DNA of 64,000 nucleotides, taken from IMG/VR virus record IMGVR_UViG_2703718819_000007; one strand, 5' to 3'. The stretch's first letter is position 1, and each line of letters opens with the position of its first letter. This DNA comes from a virus. Lineage: Duplodnaviria; Heunggongvirae; Uroviricota; Caudoviricetes. Of the stretch, positions 18,001-24,000 are shown piece after piece. A program made the position numbers.

Positions 18001-21000
18001 AGCTTGCTGGAATAAATTTCAATCTTACCGGAAGGTGTTTTAAGTGGATTTGCCTCGGGGTCGTCACGAAATGCTTTGTAGGCGACAAAATGACCATTGG
18101 GATCTTTACGCTTATAGATACCCATTTTTTTCAGTTCGTCGTAAGACGGTAACGCCGGATCTTTGGCAAGCATTTTGGCGTACAGATGTTGTAACCATTG
18201 TTCCTGCGTGCGACCTTCAGTGAACTTTTGATAGACGTCAGGTCCAAGACGTTTCGCGACTTCACTCAGGATCCAGTAAATCGGTTTGCGTTCGAATTTT
18301 TCGCTGGTGACAGGCTGGAGGAAAATGAGATATCCCATGTTACCGGCGTAGTCGTTAGGAATAATATCTTCCTGCTCAACGGTCATCAGGTCTGGCAGCA
18401 GAATGTCGGCATATTTTGCCGATGAGGTCATAAAGTTTTCGATGACCACAATCATTTCGCATTTCGATTCGTCCTGCAGAATTTCATGCGTTTTGTTGAT
18501 GTCAGAATGCTGATTAACGAGGGTATTTCCCGCGTAGTTCCAGATGGACTCCACTGTCAGACGGATGGACGGACTTGAAGTAGTTGACTCAACGCTACTT
18601 AAGGTCCTGATATGACTGACATTAACCATGACAATACTGTATATCCATCCAGTTCTTTCTCTGGGTCTCCCTATCTGTATCAGCAAGTCTACACCTCAAG
18701 TCCTGACACAAGGCTGACACAAATCAACCTACTCGGCGTGGCTTGCTCGCTACTTGCTAAGCCTCAGTTAGTCCGTAGAGCCAATGGTCGATATACTATC
18801 CGCTTCAGACTCAAGGGACAGACCATCCCGTTTCTTTCAGTATCGACCCGAAGCACAGACAGGAGAGTAGCCACAATGCGTCAGAGAGAGCTTGCAGCCA
18901 CAGCTAAGTCCTTCATGTTGGATAGGCCTGATGTCTCGCTACAGGAGCTTACAGAGCACCTCCGGTCTATGGCTGAGCAGTTCCTGACAGACGCTAGTGA
19001 CGATTACTGGAATGGACTTGAGGTCGCTACTTTGGTGGACGAGAAGTCCAACCTGAAGGAGCTAGCCGCTACGCAAGCCTTAAGTCTGGACCAGCAGAAG
19101 GGCATAAGGTTAGCGCTTGAAGTCCTGACCGCAGCACAGCAGAGGGTAGACACTGGTGATACCTCTGGTCTGATTAAGCTGATTGATGATAATAACCATA
19201 CTGATTACTCAACTATAGGCGACTCTACGTCAATTCTGAAGAATGAGCAGGGGGATAGACCAGCAGTTTTCACACAGGAGCCCCAACCTGAGGTCACTAT
19301 CGCTGACCAACCAGCTATCTGTAGTTTTTCTGAGCTAGTGTCCTCGCTGCTGGCTGAGAAGGTCCAGACCCTGAAGTCATCCAGCTACAAGGACCTGTCG
19401 TCCTCACTGAATACCGTCTCTCGGTTCTTACCTGAAGACATGGACCTGATGTCCCGCTCTGAGTGGCTGGCTGTCAGGGACGCTATGCTGGCTTCTGAGG
19501 TGAGACCGTCGACGATTAACAAGCTGCTGACTAAGGCGAAGATGTGTCTTGACTACGGTCTGATGAATGGGCAACTTGAGGGCCGCAACCCTATTGAACG
19601 GATGAAGCTGACCAAGGATATCGACTCCAAGCGCAGAGCGTTCACAGACGAGGAGCTGGAGAGACTTCTGGTCCGTGTTGAGGCTGAGTATCAGTTCACA
19701 CGACACACGGCTCACACGACCTCTGAGGCCCGTAGATGGGCGTCTCTGGTGTCTGTAGTTACTGGCGCTCGGTCTGCTGAGGTCTGCCACCTGACTAAAC
19801 GTGACATTGTAACCTTAGACAATGGACTGGTCTGTATCGACATCAACGAAGATGGGGACGGTAAGTCTGTGAAGAACAAGCATTCAGTCCGACTTGTGCC
19901 GTTGACCGATGGGGCCTGTGGTCTTGACCTGAAGTCCTTCCTCGAATGGGTAGACATGCAGCCTGACGAGGGTCCTCTCTTCGGGATGACTCCAAGCGCA
20001 TACTCTAGCTGGTTTAACTCTAGGGTCCTGACTGAGGCCCTAGGAGACTCTCAGGATGTCTCTCTCCACAGTCTGAGGCATTGGCTGGCGACCCGCATGA
20101 AAGAGCGTGGAGTCAATCTGGTGGATGCTCAGGGCATCTTAGGCCATAGCAGTCAGTCCATTACGTATGACCTGTACGGGAAAGGACATGCAGTCCAGAG
20201 ACTGGCTGAGGTGCTGAAGACAGCTTTACTTTAAGTAGGAAGACCCAAGGTGGAGACCATATACGGCTTGATGGTTGAGACCTTGGGTCACTGAAGTCTG
20301 ACTGAAGTTAGGGAGGGTGATAATAATCATAATCCCTCCTGACTATAGGCCCACTGGTTCGCCTTCGGCTGTCCGACTCTAAGTCTGTCTGTGGTCTTAT
20401 TTAAACTGCGTCCTAAACTCCAGTCCCTCCAAATTCCTATGGTCTCCTCTTGACATTCCTGTTTAACTGTGAGTCGCCTCTGGTCTCTCTTTATATATAC
20501 TTCCTTAATTCCTGAGGCGTCTTTAGTCCTTGACATTCTGTCCAACCTGTGAGTCACATCCGGTCCTCCCTCTTTATATTTACTTCCTTAATTCCTAGGG
20601 TCGCCTTAATCCTTGACATCCAGTCCAGCCTGTGAGTCACATCCTGTCGCGCTACTGTATGCATCACCAGTGGTGGACTTGATTATCACTATAGGGGAAC
20701 CAACTAATTCAACGACAGGAGATACTCTATGGCACGACCAATCGCAACTCACGACAACACGTTCACCAAAGCCTACTTGCAGCAGCACTGCGGGGACCTG
20801 CTGTCATTCGATGGTCAGGGTGACTTGAGTGGCTGGCTGGATGATGTCCTTACTGGTGCTGGTCGCCTGAGCGAATCAATGGCAAGCAATACCAAGCCTG
20901 TCAGCCCATACTTGATTCTGACCCAACTACTAACGCACGACACATTAACTGTAAGCGCTGTGCAGGAGTCCCTGAGCCGTAAGCGTGTTGCCTTGGGTGA

Positions 21001-24000
21001 ACCTATGGTTTCAACTCGCTACGCTCGCTACGTCTATTCTACGGTGGTCAGCGCCAGTAAATCCGTCAAGTACCACGCCAGTAAAGCTGGTTCATGATAA
21101 AGGACCCTAAACTATCACTATAGGGAAGACCAACCTTGCCTCTGAGTCTGATGCGTCAGAACATGCGAGCATCTGGTCAACCGACATTAAGTATCTCTCC
21201 TAAGTAATCAAGGCCCGTGACCGCCTCTGTCAGACCTCCTGTATGACCTCCAGCTCGTTAGCGTTCTTTAGTCGTCTCGGTTAGTAGCTCGTCTACTCAC
21301 TACATTGGCTTAAGTCTATCACCGCTCACCATCTGGAAGTCCTTACAGCTCGTCCTGACATGCGGTCGCACCTTTATACGTACATGGAGAACATGGTCAC
21401 TCCAGACCGTCAACATTTAACCATTCACTTTCGTTAAGCACTTTCTGATGGGTCCGTTTAGGATGCGTCTGAATGGTGCGGACTCCATGTGGAGACAGAA
21501 AGTGCTTTACCAAAGGAGCATCTTTGTATGAATACCGAATTACCAGTAACTAACCGCCAGTTCTTAATCATCCTGCTGACCAATGCAGAGTCCAGTGTCG
21601 ATTGCTGTCGCTATAACTTAGACCTGCTGAAGTTATCCCGATGGTATGCCCAGGCGGAAGACTGGGACTATGAGAAAATCCGGGAGATGTACGCGGAGCC
21701 TATCCAGTCATACCTCCAGACACACACCGAGGAAGAGCTGAAGCGTGGCCTGCAGGACATCTTCTATTTCAACAATCCTTACACCTGTGAGGGTGACTCA
21801 GAAGAGATGGATTGGATAGCGTCACGCTCTGATGCCGACTTGAAGCACATCTCTAACGCGATGATGCAGGTGGAGAGCAAATGGTCTCGCCGACTTCAGG
21901 TCCTAACTGAGGATTACGAAAACGGCACCTTTGATAAGCTGGTCCCACCTGATACCGAACGTCTTCAGGCGAAAGCTGACCAAGAACAGCGCTTCAAGTC
22001 CTTTGCCGAAGCTCTGGCGGGAGGTGCCTCTTATGACTTCTGACAATAAGCAGGAATACACCATTCATATCTTCGGTCAGGACATCACCAGTCAGGACGG
22101 ATTGTTTCGACTCGATGAAATTCGCCGGGTCGGCATTCAGATTGGCAAAGTAGAAGACACCGAGTCGACACAGTACAAGCGTTTTGCTCAGACCAAAGTT
22201 GGAAAGCTACTGAGGAATAGGCAGAAAATCCGCCTTATCCGAATGGGTGAACTCGGGTCTACCGTCCTTGCTGACCCCGCCGCTACTGTAGAGTTTGGTC
22301 GCTGGCTGGACTTTGAGTACGGACTGGCAGTCTCTGAAGCCTTCGTGTCTATGACCTCCAGCGCCACCGTGCAGTCTGCTGTAGCGTCTGCTGAGGACAT
22401 CAAGCCGGAGACCAAGGAATTCATCCAGCGTCATGGCACAGGCCTCTACATCGCCGGACGTGAAGTCTCACAGGCTGAGTATTCAGACTATCAAGCTGTG
22501 ACCGCTGGTCGCTGTGAGTGGAGGTAAGTAATCATGGCTATGATTGACCCACGCACACCTGAGGGCCGCATGACTCTCCGTTACCGTGGCTACCGGACTG
22601 AAGTCCTCCTCAGAGAGCTTGGTCTAGACCCGGAAGATGAGACCCGCCAGCACCAATCCCGAGACGAGCTGATAGCGCAACTGGTCGCTATGAAACTGTC
22701 TGCCTAATTTTAAAACCTTTTGAGATGACCGATGCGGGGAGACCCGTAGGCGCTACTGCGTCTGCGATACCGATAGTCTCAACTCTCAAGAGGAGAATTA
22801 CCTATGATGTTCAACAACAACAACTGGAAGCTGTCAGTCACCGACATCAACCTTTATGAAAACACTGTGAGTCTGGACGGTCAGCCCTATCCGCTGTCGC
22901 TCGCTATCAAGACCCTCATTCCGGGCTACCTGTCAGGCCTGCCGTCTACCAGCCGCGAGGCAATGGAGTTACTGGAAGCTCTGGCTGAAGCTGGCGTAGC
23001 TATTGGCAACTTCTTCAGTAATGACCTGATGACCGCCTATGGTCGCCGCCAGCTTAACAAACGAGCTGAGGCTGAGCGTATCGCTAAAGAGCTGGCATCT
23101 CAGAAAGAGCGTATGCGTGAAGAGAACATGACCGATGCAGAGTGGCAGAAAGAGCTACAGCGCCGCGAACAAGTCAAAGCTGAACGCCGGACCTATGGTG
23201 AGAACCTCCGCAGTGCAACCCATTCCGCTGGTCGCTCCCGTGCCGCTATTGTCGCTGACCTTGAGTCAGGCGGTAACTGGCTGGACAGCTTATAAGACAC
23301 ACAGTCCCTGACCCGATGTTAGGGACTCCTCAGTTTTGAGGACTCACAGTATTTAAACTAATTTAGGAGATTGATTATTATGACGATTAAAGACGCTTTC
23401 CAGTTTGGCATTGAGCCAGTACGCATCACCGATACCGACAACATTCAGGTCAATGAAGGTCTGCCGACTAACGCTGACCCGCAGGTCTACGCCCTCCAGT
23501 TAGCTAAGACGGTTAAGGCTATGCTGAACGGTGTACTTAAGGACGCTCAAGAGAACATCCCGTTCCCTGTAGAAGTCCTGCCGACCCGTAACAGCTTACC
23601 GACCCCAATCATTGCCCACACTCTGGCTGACCGCTCTGTGGTCGTTCCTGTCCGTGGTGGCAAGCGACCTGAAGTCGTGACCATTCCGTCTGGACAAGAA
23701 ATCGTGGTCGAACCAATCGAGCAGGCTATTCTCATCTCTGAGCAGACCACTCTCTGGGACGCCAAGTCATCCACCGGATTCACTCAGGGCACACTTCAGC
23801 AGGACGCTATGAACATCTGTGAGAATGTGGTCCGTACCATCAACGCTCACATGGTCGACGTTCTGGAATCCTCTAAGCTGCTGAAGACCGTAGAGCTTCC
23901 TGTCCTGACTGGTAGCCTGACCGCTAAGGCAGACGCTATCATGGACGCTCTGTATGAGAACACAGAGCCTTCTTTCGGTTCTGAGGTGTCTAACTACGGT

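What the first reader, a model, noticed from the sequence alone, without database searches (positions are those of the whole stretch)
20677..21128. Two T7-group-like promoter motifs without a cognate RNA polymerase gene
TTGATTATCACTATAGGGGAACC (20677-20699) and CTAAACTATCACTATAGGGAAGA (21106-21128) share the CACTATAGGGA initiation core of T7/T3/K11-type promoters but differ upstream of it, implying a distinct polymerase specificity. Both sit ahead of genes, as phage class II/III promoters do. Weaker variants (CAACTATAGGCGA at ~19205, TGACTATAGGCCC at ~20341) also occur. No ~880-aa single-subunit RNA polymerase gene is encoded anywhere in the window.
Basis: seen in the sequence. Interest (0 to 1): 0.8.

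Follow-up and report, generated by a model that had tools for sequence, protein, structure and literature searches.

The report
Mini-satellite island keyed to K1F-like phages
The two motifs match the promoters used by the RNA polymerase of K1F-like (T7-group) coliphages, and they sit in a 6.7-kb island inserted in the E. coli gene ynfE that has its own capsid gene and copies of the phage's genome-end signals, so it is most likely a phage parasite ('satellite') of T7-like phages, a type I found no description of.

Summary
A matrix built from nine phage K1F promoters scores the two sites 31.7 and 23.5 bits. K1F's own promoters score 32-38, and the best shuffle scores 19.2. Nothing else in the 64 kb exceeds 12.3, and the two "weaker variants" fail.

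The cognate polymerase belongs to virulent Kayfunavirus phages (K1F, PE3-1), whose ~40-kb genomes carry the same CTAAACTATCACTATAGGGAGA promoter.

The sites lie in a 6,711-bp island (18547-25257) inserted in ynfE. It encodes:
- an integrase;
- a conserved gene pair, one member of which models as an HK97-fold capsid protein (pLDDT 84.6);
- a homologue of K1F virion protein gp7.3;
- no polymerase, replication, portal, terminase or tail genes.

Its two ends resemble the left and right ends of the K1F terminal repeat, including the ATCTGT pause signal. They become contiguous only after excision.

Related islands of 6.1-6.8 kb occur in 313 of 5,426 E. coli genomes and in at least seven other genera. 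Across 21 loci, CACTATAGG occurs 48 times on the gene strand and never on the other.

Best reading (0.7): a satellite of T7-like phages, switched on by the helper's polymerase. I found no description of such a satellite. Excision and packaging are inferred, not shown.

The parts
18536..18546 (.). attL core AGTTCCAGATG inside ynfE; the ynfE C-terminal fragment lies to its left on the minus strand
   Evidence: The same 11-mer is at 25247-25257. The ynfE reading frame ...FIWN|YAGNTL is restored by joining the two flanks.
18547..25257 (+). The island, 6,711 bp from att to att, with all genes on the + strand
   Evidence: ynfE is split in two. Related islands measure 6,132-6,782 bp. It is present in 313 of 5,426 E. 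coli genomes.
18654..18683 (+). Mimic of the right end of the K1F terminal repeat plus the junction pause signal: TCTTTCTCTGGGTCTCCCTATCTGTATCAG
   Evidence: Smith-Waterman score 39 against K1F 163-190; shuffles give mean 20.5 and maximum 27. TCTC(Y0-2)TATCTGTA occurs once on the + strand in 21 of 22 loci and never on the minus strand. It sits in different integrase reading frames in the two island lineages.
18612..20234 (+). Tyrosine integrase; the true start codon is uncertain
   Evidence: PF00589 at 1.7e-14; phrog_1 at 4.7e-43.
18704..18723 (+). TGACACAA repeats, candidate arm-type integrase sites (left set)
   Evidence: The same 20-mer recurs at 25159-25178, with a third copy at 25182. The role is inferred.
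19317..19331 (+). ATCTGTAGTTTTTCT inside int, resembling a class II terminator (ATCTGT plus a U run)
   Evidence: Read directly from the sequence. It is conserved in Leclercia and Kluyvera islands. The class II signal is described in doi 10.1101/2021.01.11.426313. Function not tested.
20311..20339 (+). Hairpin GGGAGGGTGATAATAATCATAATCCCTCC, shared with K1F
   Evidence: K1F has GGAGGTGATATTAATCATAATACCTCC about 120 nt after its last promoter. The hairpin is conserved in ynfE-type islands. Function unknown.
20449..20648 (+). 83-bp tandem repeats, 2.5 copies, each with TTGACAT and CTGTGAGTC
   Evidence: They are not sigma-70 promoters by the scan. Unexplained.
20676..20701 (+). K1F-type promoter 1 (variant), predicted +1 at 20694
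   Evidence: 23.5 bits. It is conserved in L001-L004 and L077. Its flanks align with the K1F gene-10 promoter region, 68% over 87 nt. The same variant occurs in a K1F-like contig.
20729..21097 (+). gpA, 122 aa, function unknown
   Evidence: phrog_23123 at 9.8e-9. Its only phage relative is in Aeromonas phage 85AhydR10PP.
21105..21130 (+). K1F-type promoter 2 (consensus), predicted +1 at 21123
   Evidence: 31.7 bits, within the range of K1F's own promoters. It is invariant across islands whose flanks no longer align.
21123..21527 (+). 405-nt untranslated leader with a conserved GCCTCTGAGTCTGATGCGTCAGAACATGCG box
   Evidence: Folding z-score -3.9; the box is conserved. Role unknown; a replication origin or processing site is only a guess.
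21528..22707 (+). Variable module: gpB (171 aa, 21528-22043), gpC (164 aa, 22033-22527, distantly KilA-N-like), gpD (57 aa, 22534-22707)
   Evidence: Other islands carry KilA-N, AP2, HNH, Rha or DUF4145 proteins in this slot. gpC against the KilA-N allele gives E 3e-4.
22804..23295 (+). gpE, 163 aa, charged helical C-terminal half; candidate scaffolding protein
   Evidence: It always lies directly upstream of the capsid gene. It is homologous to the 134-aa protein in the same position in the distant island L085 (28% identity, E 1e-10). NCBI annotation names the gpE-equivalent protein of island L004 a DUF6971 family protein, and other islands give weak or faint PF22318/DUF6971 hits. The scaffold role is inferred.
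23380..24366 (+). gpF, 328 aa, HK97-fold major capsid protein
   Evidence: AlphaFold2 with a 39-sequence alignment gives pLDDT 84.6 and pTM 0.80. Foldseek finds 220 PDB and 215 viral hits at E<=1e-3, and the hits listed are capsid proteins or encapsulins almost without exception. Distant homologues carry C-terminal Ig-like domains.
24372..24611 (+). gpG, 79 aa, homologue of K1F/T7 gp7.3 (virion protein needed for infectivity)
   Evidence: 40% identity to K1F gp7.3, E 1e-14; phrog_1320 at 1.8e-11. It is the only island protein with a K1F relative.
24608..25005 (+). gpH (52 aa, 24608-24766), a terminator-like hairpin at 24774-24796, and gpI (51 aa, one membrane helix, 24850-25005)
   Evidence: Functions unknown; the idea that gpH or gpD acts as an excision factor is a guess.
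25083..25120 (+). Mimic of the left part of the K1F terminal repeat: TCTCCCCCATAGCCCCGCCTCAAGTCCAGACCGAGGCC
   Evidence: Smith-Waterman score 39 against K1F 24-61; shuffles give mean 21.1 and maximum 30. The global alignment extends back to the K1F end sequence at about 25062.
25159..25189 (+). TGACACAA repeats, three copies (right set)
25247..25257 (.). attR core AGTTCCAGATG; the ynfE N-terminal fragment follows on the minus strand

Best explanation
The two motifs are promoters for the single-subunit RNA polymerase of K1F-like virulent phages (genus Kayfunavirus, T7 group). They belong to a 6.7-kb integrative island that behaves as a satellite of those phages.

Shown by sequence analysis: the promoters match the helper consensus; the island has no polymerase, replication, portal, terminase or tail genes; no sigma-70-like promoters are found above chance; it encodes an HK97-fold capsid protein with a conserved partner gene, and a gp7.3 homologue; and its two ends mimic the two ends of the K1F terminal repeat.

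Inferred life cycle: the island stays silent until a K1F-like phage infects and makes its polymerase. That polymerase then transcribes the island genes from 20694 and 21123. The integrase, probably with a small island-encoded directionality factor, excises the island. Excision joins 25083-25120 and 18654-18683 across attP into a structure like the helper's concatemer junction, including the ATCTGT pause site. The helper's replication proteins copy the island, possibly starting at its phage promoters as in T7 origins. The helper's terminase, portal and tail then package it. The shell is either a small one built from the island's own capsid protein or a full-size one filled with a concatemer of about six copies. 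Interference with the helper is likely but untested.
For: Promoter identity:
- Matrix scores are 31.7 and 23.5 bits, against a shuffle maximum of 19.2.
- K1F has ten CTAAACTATCACTATAGG sites.
- The exact 16-mer occurs several times on one strand in about 20 phage contigs of 39-41 kb, identified as PE3-1, K1F, LM33_P1, ZG49 and relatives.

Selection on the promoters:
- In 21 related loci (276 kb), CACTATAGG occurs 48 times on the gene strand and 0 times on the other; about 1 per strand is expected by chance.
- The promoter is invariant where its flanks no longer align.
- Other islands carry other T7-group specificities. AAACCCT/ATACCCT matches the promoters of phages GW1, Dev2, SH4 and SFPH2. 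Proteus, Kluyvera and Shimwellia islands, and contigs L085 and L087 (source organism not identified), have further types, sometimes as tandem pairs of two specificities.

Dependence on a helper:
- Nine of the ten island ORFs have no replication or packaging family hits.
- Sigma-70-like sites are at the chance level.

Virion link:
- gpF has the HK97 capsid fold.
- The gpE-gpF pair is conserved down to about 25% identity.
- gpG is 40% identical to K1F gp7.3.

Packaging mimicry:
- Two K1F terminal-repeat segments match the island ends on the correct strand and in the correct order around att. Each scores 39, against shuffle maxima of 30 and 27.
- The 16-mer GTCTCCCTATCTGTAT is kept in two integrase lineages at non-homologous positions and in different reading frames.
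- The class II signal at the T7 concatemer junction is documented in doi 10.1101/2021.01.11.426313.

Size constraint: islands measure 6.1-6.8 kb, including 6,715 bp in a relative whose capsid protein is only 25% identical.
Against: - No excised or packaged form was found. The attP junction is absent from IMG/VR and from JGI metagenome contigs. Island-length contigs turned out to be integrated copies.
- Nothing here shows transcription, excision or transduction.
- The integrase lies upstream of the phage promoters, so how excision is triggered is unknown.
- The junction-like motif at 18666 overlaps the annotated integrase ORF (it encodes PYLYQ). It reads ATCTGTA, whereas T7 polymerase is reported to need ATCTGTT exactly. 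K1F itself has ATCTGTA at that position.
- The capsid-like protein could instead act as an assembly poison.
- Many copies carry IS insertions, and one island (L006) has mutated initiation cores. Some copies are therefore decaying.
- T7-like phages degrade host DNA early, which an island would have to escape.
Confidence: 0.7

Rival explanations
1. A defence-only island. The phage promoters act as a sensor so that infection switches on proteins that abort or poison K1F-like phage development: a decoy capsid protein, a decoy gp7.3, and KilA-N, AP2 or HNH proteins. The island is not packaged or transferred.
For: The phage-specific promoters would give infection-triggered expression. The variable slot holds nuclease and DNA-binding proteins (HNH, AP2, KilA-N, Rha, DUF4145), as in a defence hotspot. 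No packaged form was found.
Against: No PADLOC defence model matches any island protein. A pure defence locus needs neither an integrase with its own att site, nor mimicry of both helper terminal-repeat ends arranged to join only on excision, nor a tightly kept size of 6.1-6.8 kb across distant relatives. Known satellites also interfere with their helpers, so the two readings are not exclusive.
Confidence: 0.17
2. A decayed remnant of a temperate T7-like prophage that once carried its own polymerase.
For: An integrase sits beside T7-group promoters, a gp7.3 homologue and terminal-repeat-like sequences. Temperate T7-like phages exist, for example LUZ100 (listed).
Against: There are no fragments of polymerase, DNA polymerase, portal, terminase or tail genes. 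The capsid protein shows no sequence relation to K1F gp10. The same compact architecture and size recur in 313 E. coli genomes and at least seven other genera with intact ORFs. Random decay would not produce that.
Confidence: 0.05
3. An encapsulin-like nanocompartment locus carried on an island. The promoter-like motifs serve some role unrelated to phage.
For: Encapsulins are among the best structural matches to gpF (TM-score relative to the target up to about 0.5).
Against: There is no cargo-type gene. Distant homologues carry the C-terminal Ig-like domains typical of virion proteins. The adjacent gene is a gp7.3 virion homologue. The promoters match a specific phage genus.
Confidence: 0.03
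4. Chance occurrence of an AT-rich 11-mer.
For: Ten of 100 shuffles give two matches to the 11-mer at one mismatch or fewer.
Against: The 26-nt matrix scores are far above the shuffles. The strand bias is 48 to 0 across 21 loci. The motif is invariant within otherwise unalignable flanks.
Confidence: 0.01

Closest known systems
Capsid-forming PICIs (cf-PICIs) of Enterobacteriaceae
   Same: An integrative island that encodes its own HK97-fold capsid protein and depends on a helper phage for the rest of the virion.
   Different: cf-PICIs are about twice as large. They carry a full head and packaging module (portal, protease, connectors, terminase) plus alpA and a primase/replication module, and they use temperate helpers. 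This island has only a capsid gene, one partner gene and a gp7.3 homologue. It has no replication or packaging genes, and its helper is a virulent T7-group phage. The cf-PICI gene content is from my own knowledge and from the SatelliteFinder paper listed; I did not test it against a profile set.
PICMIs (Vibrionaceae) and marine VEIMEs
   Same: Very small integrative satellites (about 5-7 kb), some with virulent helpers. These elements are reported to be packaged as concatemers matching helper genome length (PMC10803314 abstract; PMC9618062). That is one of the two packaging options here: six copies of 6.7 kb make about 40 kb.
   Different: PICMIs and VEIMEs are reported to lack capsid genes, and PICMIs are reported to have Fis, AlpA and primase genes (my own knowledge). 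None is reported to use helper-polymerase promoters. This island has a capsid gene, no replication gene, and T7-group promoters.
P4-like satellites and PLEs
   Same: Integrated elements activated by a helper, which reuse helper virion parts and usually interfere with the helper. PLE's helper is also a virulent phage.
   Different: P4 and PLE encode their own replication proteins and remodel the helper's capsid protein rather than bringing their own. No P4 or PLE marker family was detected. Their induction is protein-mediated, not through promoters specific to a helper-encoded polymerase.
T7 promoters, replication origins and concatemer-junction signals as cis-acting elements
   Same: Plasmids carrying a T7 origin (a phage promoter) and the concatemer junction are replicated and packaged by T7 as concatemers of about 40 kb. 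This is from my own knowledge of Chung and Hinkle 1990; I did not check it here. The island carries the K1F counterparts of these elements: promoters, both terminal-repeat ends and the ATCTGT signal.
   Different: Those were laboratory constructs. This is a natural, integrating, protein-coding element, and the phage-end mimic is split by its att site.

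Membership tests
T7-group (Studiervirinae) phage promoter, K1F/Kayfunavirus specificity | A 23-nt consensus from -17 to +6 with the CACTATAGG(G/A) core and the genus-specific -14 to -8 element AAACTAT | tested here: met
   Site 2 scores 31.7 bits on a matrix of nine K1F promoters, whose own scores are 32-38. Site 1 is a variant at 23.5 bits, and that variant also occurs in a K1F-like contig.
T7-group (Studiervirinae) phage promoter, K1F/Kayfunavirus specificity | Placed upstream of, and co-oriented with, the genes it drives | tested here: met
   Both sites lie ahead of + strand ORFs. 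The strand bias is 48 to 0 in 21 loci.
T7-group (Studiervirinae) phage promoter, K1F/Kayfunavirus specificity | Specific initiation by the cognate single-subunit polymerase | not testable with these tools
   Needs in vitro transcription or 5'-end mapping during infection.
Phage satellite (general) | A mobile element with its own integrase and att sites that lacks a complete set of virion, packaging and replication genes | tested here: met
   An 11-bp att core and a tyrosine integrase are present. No portal, terminase, tail, polymerase or replication family was detected.
Phage satellite (general) | Cis or trans features matched to a specific helper | tested here: met
   Helper-type promoters, a gp7.3 homologue and mimicry of both K1F terminal-repeat ends.
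Phage satellite (general) | Helper-dependent excision, replication and packaging into particles, followed by transfer | tested here: inconclusive
   The attP junction was not found in IMG/VR or JGI contigs. These collections may simply not sample it; an experiment is needed.
cf-PICI | Own major capsid protein | tested here: met
   gpF has the HK97 fold.
cf-PICI | Own portal, prohead protease, head-tail connectors and terminase; an alpA and primase/replication module | tested here: not met
   No such families appear in Pfam, PHROGs or NCBIfam scans of any of the ten ORFs. At 6.7 kb the island leaves no room for them.
PICMI | A small island with integrase, Fis/AlpA and primase, and no capsid genes | tested here: not met
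   Size and integrase fit, but no Fis, AlpA or primase was detected, and a capsid gene is present.
P4-like satellite | Alpha primase-helicase, and the sid, psu and delta genes | tested here: not met
   No matching family in the Pfam, PHROGs or NCBIfam scans.
HK97-fold major capsid protein | An HK97 fold (N-arm, E-loop hairpin, spine helix, A and P domains) in a confident model | tested here: met
   pLDDT 84.6 and pTM 0.80. The top hits are phi29, T5, T7-like and encapsulin shells at E of 7e-9 to 1e-7, and viral capsid proteins at 7e-11. No sequence-level family hit was found.
T7 gp7.3 family (PF11653 / phrog_1320) | Sequence homology to gp7.3 of a T7-group phage | tested here: met
   40% identity to K1F gp7.3, E 1e-14; phrog_1320 at 1.8e-11. 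The Pfam hit is below its cut-off (17.6 against 25 bits).
Temperate T7-like prophage | Own single-subunit polymerase, DNA polymerase, portal, terminase and tail genes, or their remnants | tested here: not met
   None is present in the island or elsewhere in the window.

The most novel reading that the evidence does not exclude
This is the first recognised family of satellites that parasitise T7-like (Autographiviridae) virulent phages. These are minimal islands of about 6.7 kb that use promoters for the helper's own single-subunit RNA polymerase as the induction switch. They swap or pair promoters to follow different helper polymerase specificities. They carry a self-encoded HK97 capsid protein, perhaps building a small shell on the helper's portal. 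They reconstitute a mimic of the helper's concatemer junction across attP only after excision.
Probability: 0.55. Interest if true: 0.9.

Novelty: new variant of a known kind. Interest (0 to 1): 0.85.

Why it matters
T7 and its relatives are among the best-studied viruses and are widely used in phage therapy and biotechnology. I found no satellite described for them in nine full-text literature searches.

If this reading is right, it would show several things:
- A new way for a parasite to detect its helper: through the helper's orthogonal transcription machinery, so that one short DNA motif is the whole sensor.
- A natural arms race over polymerase-promoter specificity, seen as several promoter types and tandem dual-specificity pairs in related islands.
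- How small a capsid-encoding mobile element can be.

There are practical sides too. About 6% of complete E. coli genomes carry such an island, which may limit or be spread by therapeutic Kayfunavirus phages such as K1F and LM33_P1. The islands also offer a catalogue of natural promoter variants for orthogonal expression systems.

Tried and rejected
- **Weaker variants.** The sites at 19212 and 20342 score below 8 bits on the K1F matrix, so I rejected them as K1F-type promoters.
- **The three TTGACAT repeats as T7 A1-A3-like host promoters.** I rejected this because no -10 element is present and the sigma-70 scan is at the chance level.
- **DNA similarity of the island to known phages.** None was found. 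A tblastn search with all island proteins against 50,697 phage records gave one weak hit.
- **First AlphaFold run on gpF.** With 13 close homologues it gave pLDDT 40 and was unusable. It succeeded only after an exhaustive profile search supplied distant homologues.
- **Sequence-level links of gpF.** Searches against PDB chains and against K1F gp10 found nothing.
- **Defence and RNA families.** PADLOC, NCBIfam and Rfam gave nothing beyond the integrase.
- **Island-length contigs as possible excised circles.** The contigs of 6.4-7.3 kb proved to be integrated copies with chromosomal flanks.
- **attP junction.** It was absent from IMG/VR and from JGI metagenome contigs.
- **Helpers for the L086 and L087 promoter types.** None was found in IMG/VR.
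- **GATTATCACTATAGGG hits in small viral contigs.** These are unrelated single occurrences, apart from one K1F-like phage.
- **gpC as a KilA-N protein.** Support is weak only: E 3e-4 against the allelic KilA-N protein and no Pfam hit.

Full report
**1. The observation**

Both motifs are in the sequence on the + strand, 1-2 nt to the right of the stated coordinates:
- TTGATTATCACTATAGGGGAACC at 20679-20701;
- CTAAACTATCACTATAGGGAAGA at 21107-21129.

The shared 11-mer alone is not convincing. It gives 2 hits against 0.64 expected, and 10 of 100 shuffles reach 2. I therefore built a 26-nt weight matrix from the nine ATCACTATAGG sites of phage K1F. It scores 31.7 bits at 21105 and 23.5 bits at 20676. 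K1F's own sites score 32-38, the best of 50 shuffled windows scores 19.2, and the next best site in the 64 kb scores 12.3. The "weaker variants" at 19212 and 20342 score below 8 bits. No ORF in the window encodes a single-subunit RNA polymerase.

**2. Whose promoters they are**

An exact scan of IMG/VR for AACTATCACTATAGGG hit about 20 contigs of 39-41 kb, each with several copies on one strand. One of these contigs is Escherichia phage PE3-1, and its relatives include K1F, LM33_P1, ZG49 and ST31. These belong to the genus Kayfunavirus (Studiervirinae), and K1F encodes its own polymerase, gene 1.0.

K1F has ten sites reading gaCTAAACTATCACTATAGGgaga. Site 2 of the window matches the K1F gene-10 promoter over positions -15 to +4 (CTAAACTATCACTATAGGGA, 20 nt). 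Site 1 and its flanks align with the K1F gene-10 promoter region. Its TGATTAT variant also occurs as a promoter in one K1F-like contig.

**3. The context**

The window is E. coli chromosome. The motifs lie in a 6,711-bp island (18547-25257) inserted in ynfE. An 11-bp core, AGTTCCAGATG, is duplicated at 18536 and 25247, and the two ynfE halves join in frame.

All island genes are on the + strand:
- a tyrosine integrase;
- gpA (122 aa);
- a variable module (gpB, gpC, gpD);
- gpE (163 aa);
- gpF (328 aa);
- gpG (79 aa);
- two small ORFs.

No polymerase, replication, portal, terminase or tail family is detectable. No defence model matches. Sigma-70-like promoters are at the chance level.

**4. Virion links**

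gpG is 40% identical to K1F gp7.3 (E 1e-14).

gpF has no sequence-level family. A first model built from close homologues failed, with pLDDT 40. An exhaustive profile search then found distant homologues at 20-42% identity, two of them with C-terminal Ig-like domains. With these in the alignment, AlphaFold2 gave pLDDT 84.6 and pTM 0.80. Foldseek returned more than 200 matches at E<=1e-3 in each of the PDB and BFVD libraries; nearly all of those listed are HK97-fold capsid proteins or encapsulins. gpF is thus an HK97-fold capsid protein unrelated in sequence to K1F gp10.

gpE always precedes gpF. It is homologous to the protein in the same position in a distant island (E 1e-10). I treat it as a candidate scaffold, which is an inference.

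**5. Mimicry of the phage genome ends**

K1F has a 178-bp terminal repeat, followed directly by TATCTGTATCAG. Two of its segments have significant matches in the island, on the + strand:
- K1F 24-61 matches window 25083-25120, with score 39 against a shuffle maximum of 30.
- K1F 163-190 matches window 18654-18683, with score 39 against a shuffle maximum of 27.

The first match is at the island's right end and the second at its left end. They form one repeat-like unit only across attP, that is, after excision or in a concatemer.

ATCTGT is the core of the class II pause/termination signal located at the T7 concatemer junction (doi 10.1101/2021.01.11.426313). From my own knowledge, not checked here, pausing there is required for T7 concatemer processing.

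The motif overlaps the integrase ORF. However, the 16-mer GTCTCCCTATCTGTAT is conserved in a second island lineage, integrated at tRNA-Gly, at a non-homologous position of a ~30%-identical integrase and in another reading frame. That argues for selection on the DNA rather than on the protein. TCTC(Y0-2)TATCTGTA occurs once on the gene strand in 21 of 22 loci and never on the other strand. A hairpin shared with the K1F right-end region is also present.

**6. The family**

Island DNA occurs in 313 of 5,426 complete E. coli genomes. It has a conserved backbone and a variable slot holding KilA-N, AP2, HNH, Rha or DUF4145 proteins.

A scan of species-representative genomes found relatives in Leclercia, Citrobacter, Enterobacter, Buttiauxella, Kluyvera, Proteus and Shimwellia. 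More distant islands turned up in assemblies. Island size is held at 6.1-6.8 kb, including 6,715 bp for an island whose capsid protein is only 25% identical.

Across 21 loci (276 kb), CACTATAGG occurs 48 times on the gene strand and never on the other; about one per strand is expected by chance.

The upstream specificity element differs between islands:
- AAACTAT (K1F type);
- AAACCCT or ATACCCT, the promoter type of Kayfunavirus phages GW1, Dev2, SH4 and SFPH2;
- TAACCCA in Proteus, and GAAGGTA in Kluyvera;
- TTCCTAC in L087;
- a motif like that of Pseudomonas phage gh-1 (my recollection of its promoter, not checked here), AAAAACCCTCACTCTAAGGAGA, in L085.

Leclercia and Citrobacter islands carry tandem pairs of two specificities 26-27 nt apart.

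**7. Interpretation**

The best-supported reading is a satellite of T7-like phages. The island stays silent until the helper's polymerase appears, and it relies on the helper for replication, terminase, portal and tail.

Two packaging modes fit the data:
- A small shell built from gpF. A rough geometric estimate gives a T=3 HK97 shell a capacity of about 6-9 kb; this is my inference.
- Concatemers of about six copies (about 40 kb) in a full-size head. PICMIs and marine VEIMEs are reported to be packaged this way.

What is shown is sequence-level only. Induction, excision, replication, packaging and interference are inferred. I found no excised or packaged form, some copies are IS-disrupted, and one island has mutated promoter cores.

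The rivals are as follows:
- A defence-only island. This is partly compatible with the satellite reading.
- A prophage remnant. The conserved compact architecture argues against it.
- An encapsulin locus.
- Chance.

**8. Novelty**

Nine full-text literature searches found no satellite of T7-like phages and no element using helper single-subunit-polymerase promoters. The library excludes most subscription journals, so prior description cannot be ruled out.

The island fails the membership tests for cf-PICI, PICMI and P4-like satellites. It is best described as a new family within the known category of phage satellites.

Noticed in passing
window 20449-20648: An 83-bp tandem repeat of 2.5 copies, each with TTGACAT and CTGTGAGTC, between the integrase gene and promoter 1. 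Copy number varies among islands, and the repeat is absent from the tRNA-Gly-type islands. They are not sigma-70 promoters by the scan; the function is unknown.
   Followed up: partly
window 21123-21527: The 405-nt untranslated leader after promoter 2 folds better than shuffles (z = -3.9). It starts with a box, GCCTCTGAGTCTGATGCGTCAGAACATGCG, that is conserved across islands whose downstream genes differ. It could be an origin, a processing site or a non-coding RNA.
   Followed up: partly
window 19317-19331: ATCTGTAGTTTTTCT lies inside the integrase gene. It resembles a class II terminator (ATCTGT plus a U run) and is conserved in Leclercia and Kluyvera islands.
   Followed up: partly
L092 4469-5057; L094 2349-2955: Leclercia and Citrobacter islands carry tandem pairs of promoters with two different specificity elements 26-27 nt apart: ATACCCT- or AACCCCT-CACTATAGGG followed by AAACTAT-, TAACTAT- or TAGCTAT-CACTATAGGG. 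This looks like a dual key for two helper polymerase types.
   Followed up: partly
L006 3434-3480 and 4635-4680: One E. coli island (strain PSS-10, the HNH variant) keeps the tandem promoter layout, but its initiation cores are mutated (CACAGTAGG, CACTATCAG, CACTGTTAG, CACTATCGG). This could be decay or a shift in specificity.
   Followed up: no
L005, L008, L079 (leader region): A promoter-like variant, GACTAAACTATCACCTTAGGAACGA, has the K1F upstream element but CACCTTAGG instead of CACTATAGG.
   Followed up: no
L087 4043-4477: A larger related island (~10.5 kb) carries a T7 gp0.4-like protein (PF26807), an HNH endonuclease and a ParE-like protein, together with four TTAATTCCTACCACTATAGGGAGA promoters.
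   Followed up: no
window 1-13500: This segment is not shared with most E. coli genomes. It holds a 2,806-aa 'large polyvalent protein' (LPD38, LPD5, LPD1 and MuF_C domains) at 1597-10017, so it is probably another mobile element.
   Followed up: no
window 32018-64000: A lambdoid prophage lies next to rspB. It has an integrase (32018-33313, minus strand), an 822-aa protein with an Rv2179c-like exoribonuclease domain, terminase gpA (51720-53822), a lambda-family portal, a ClpP-capsid fusion and a tape measure. It is unrelated to the finding.
   Followed up: no
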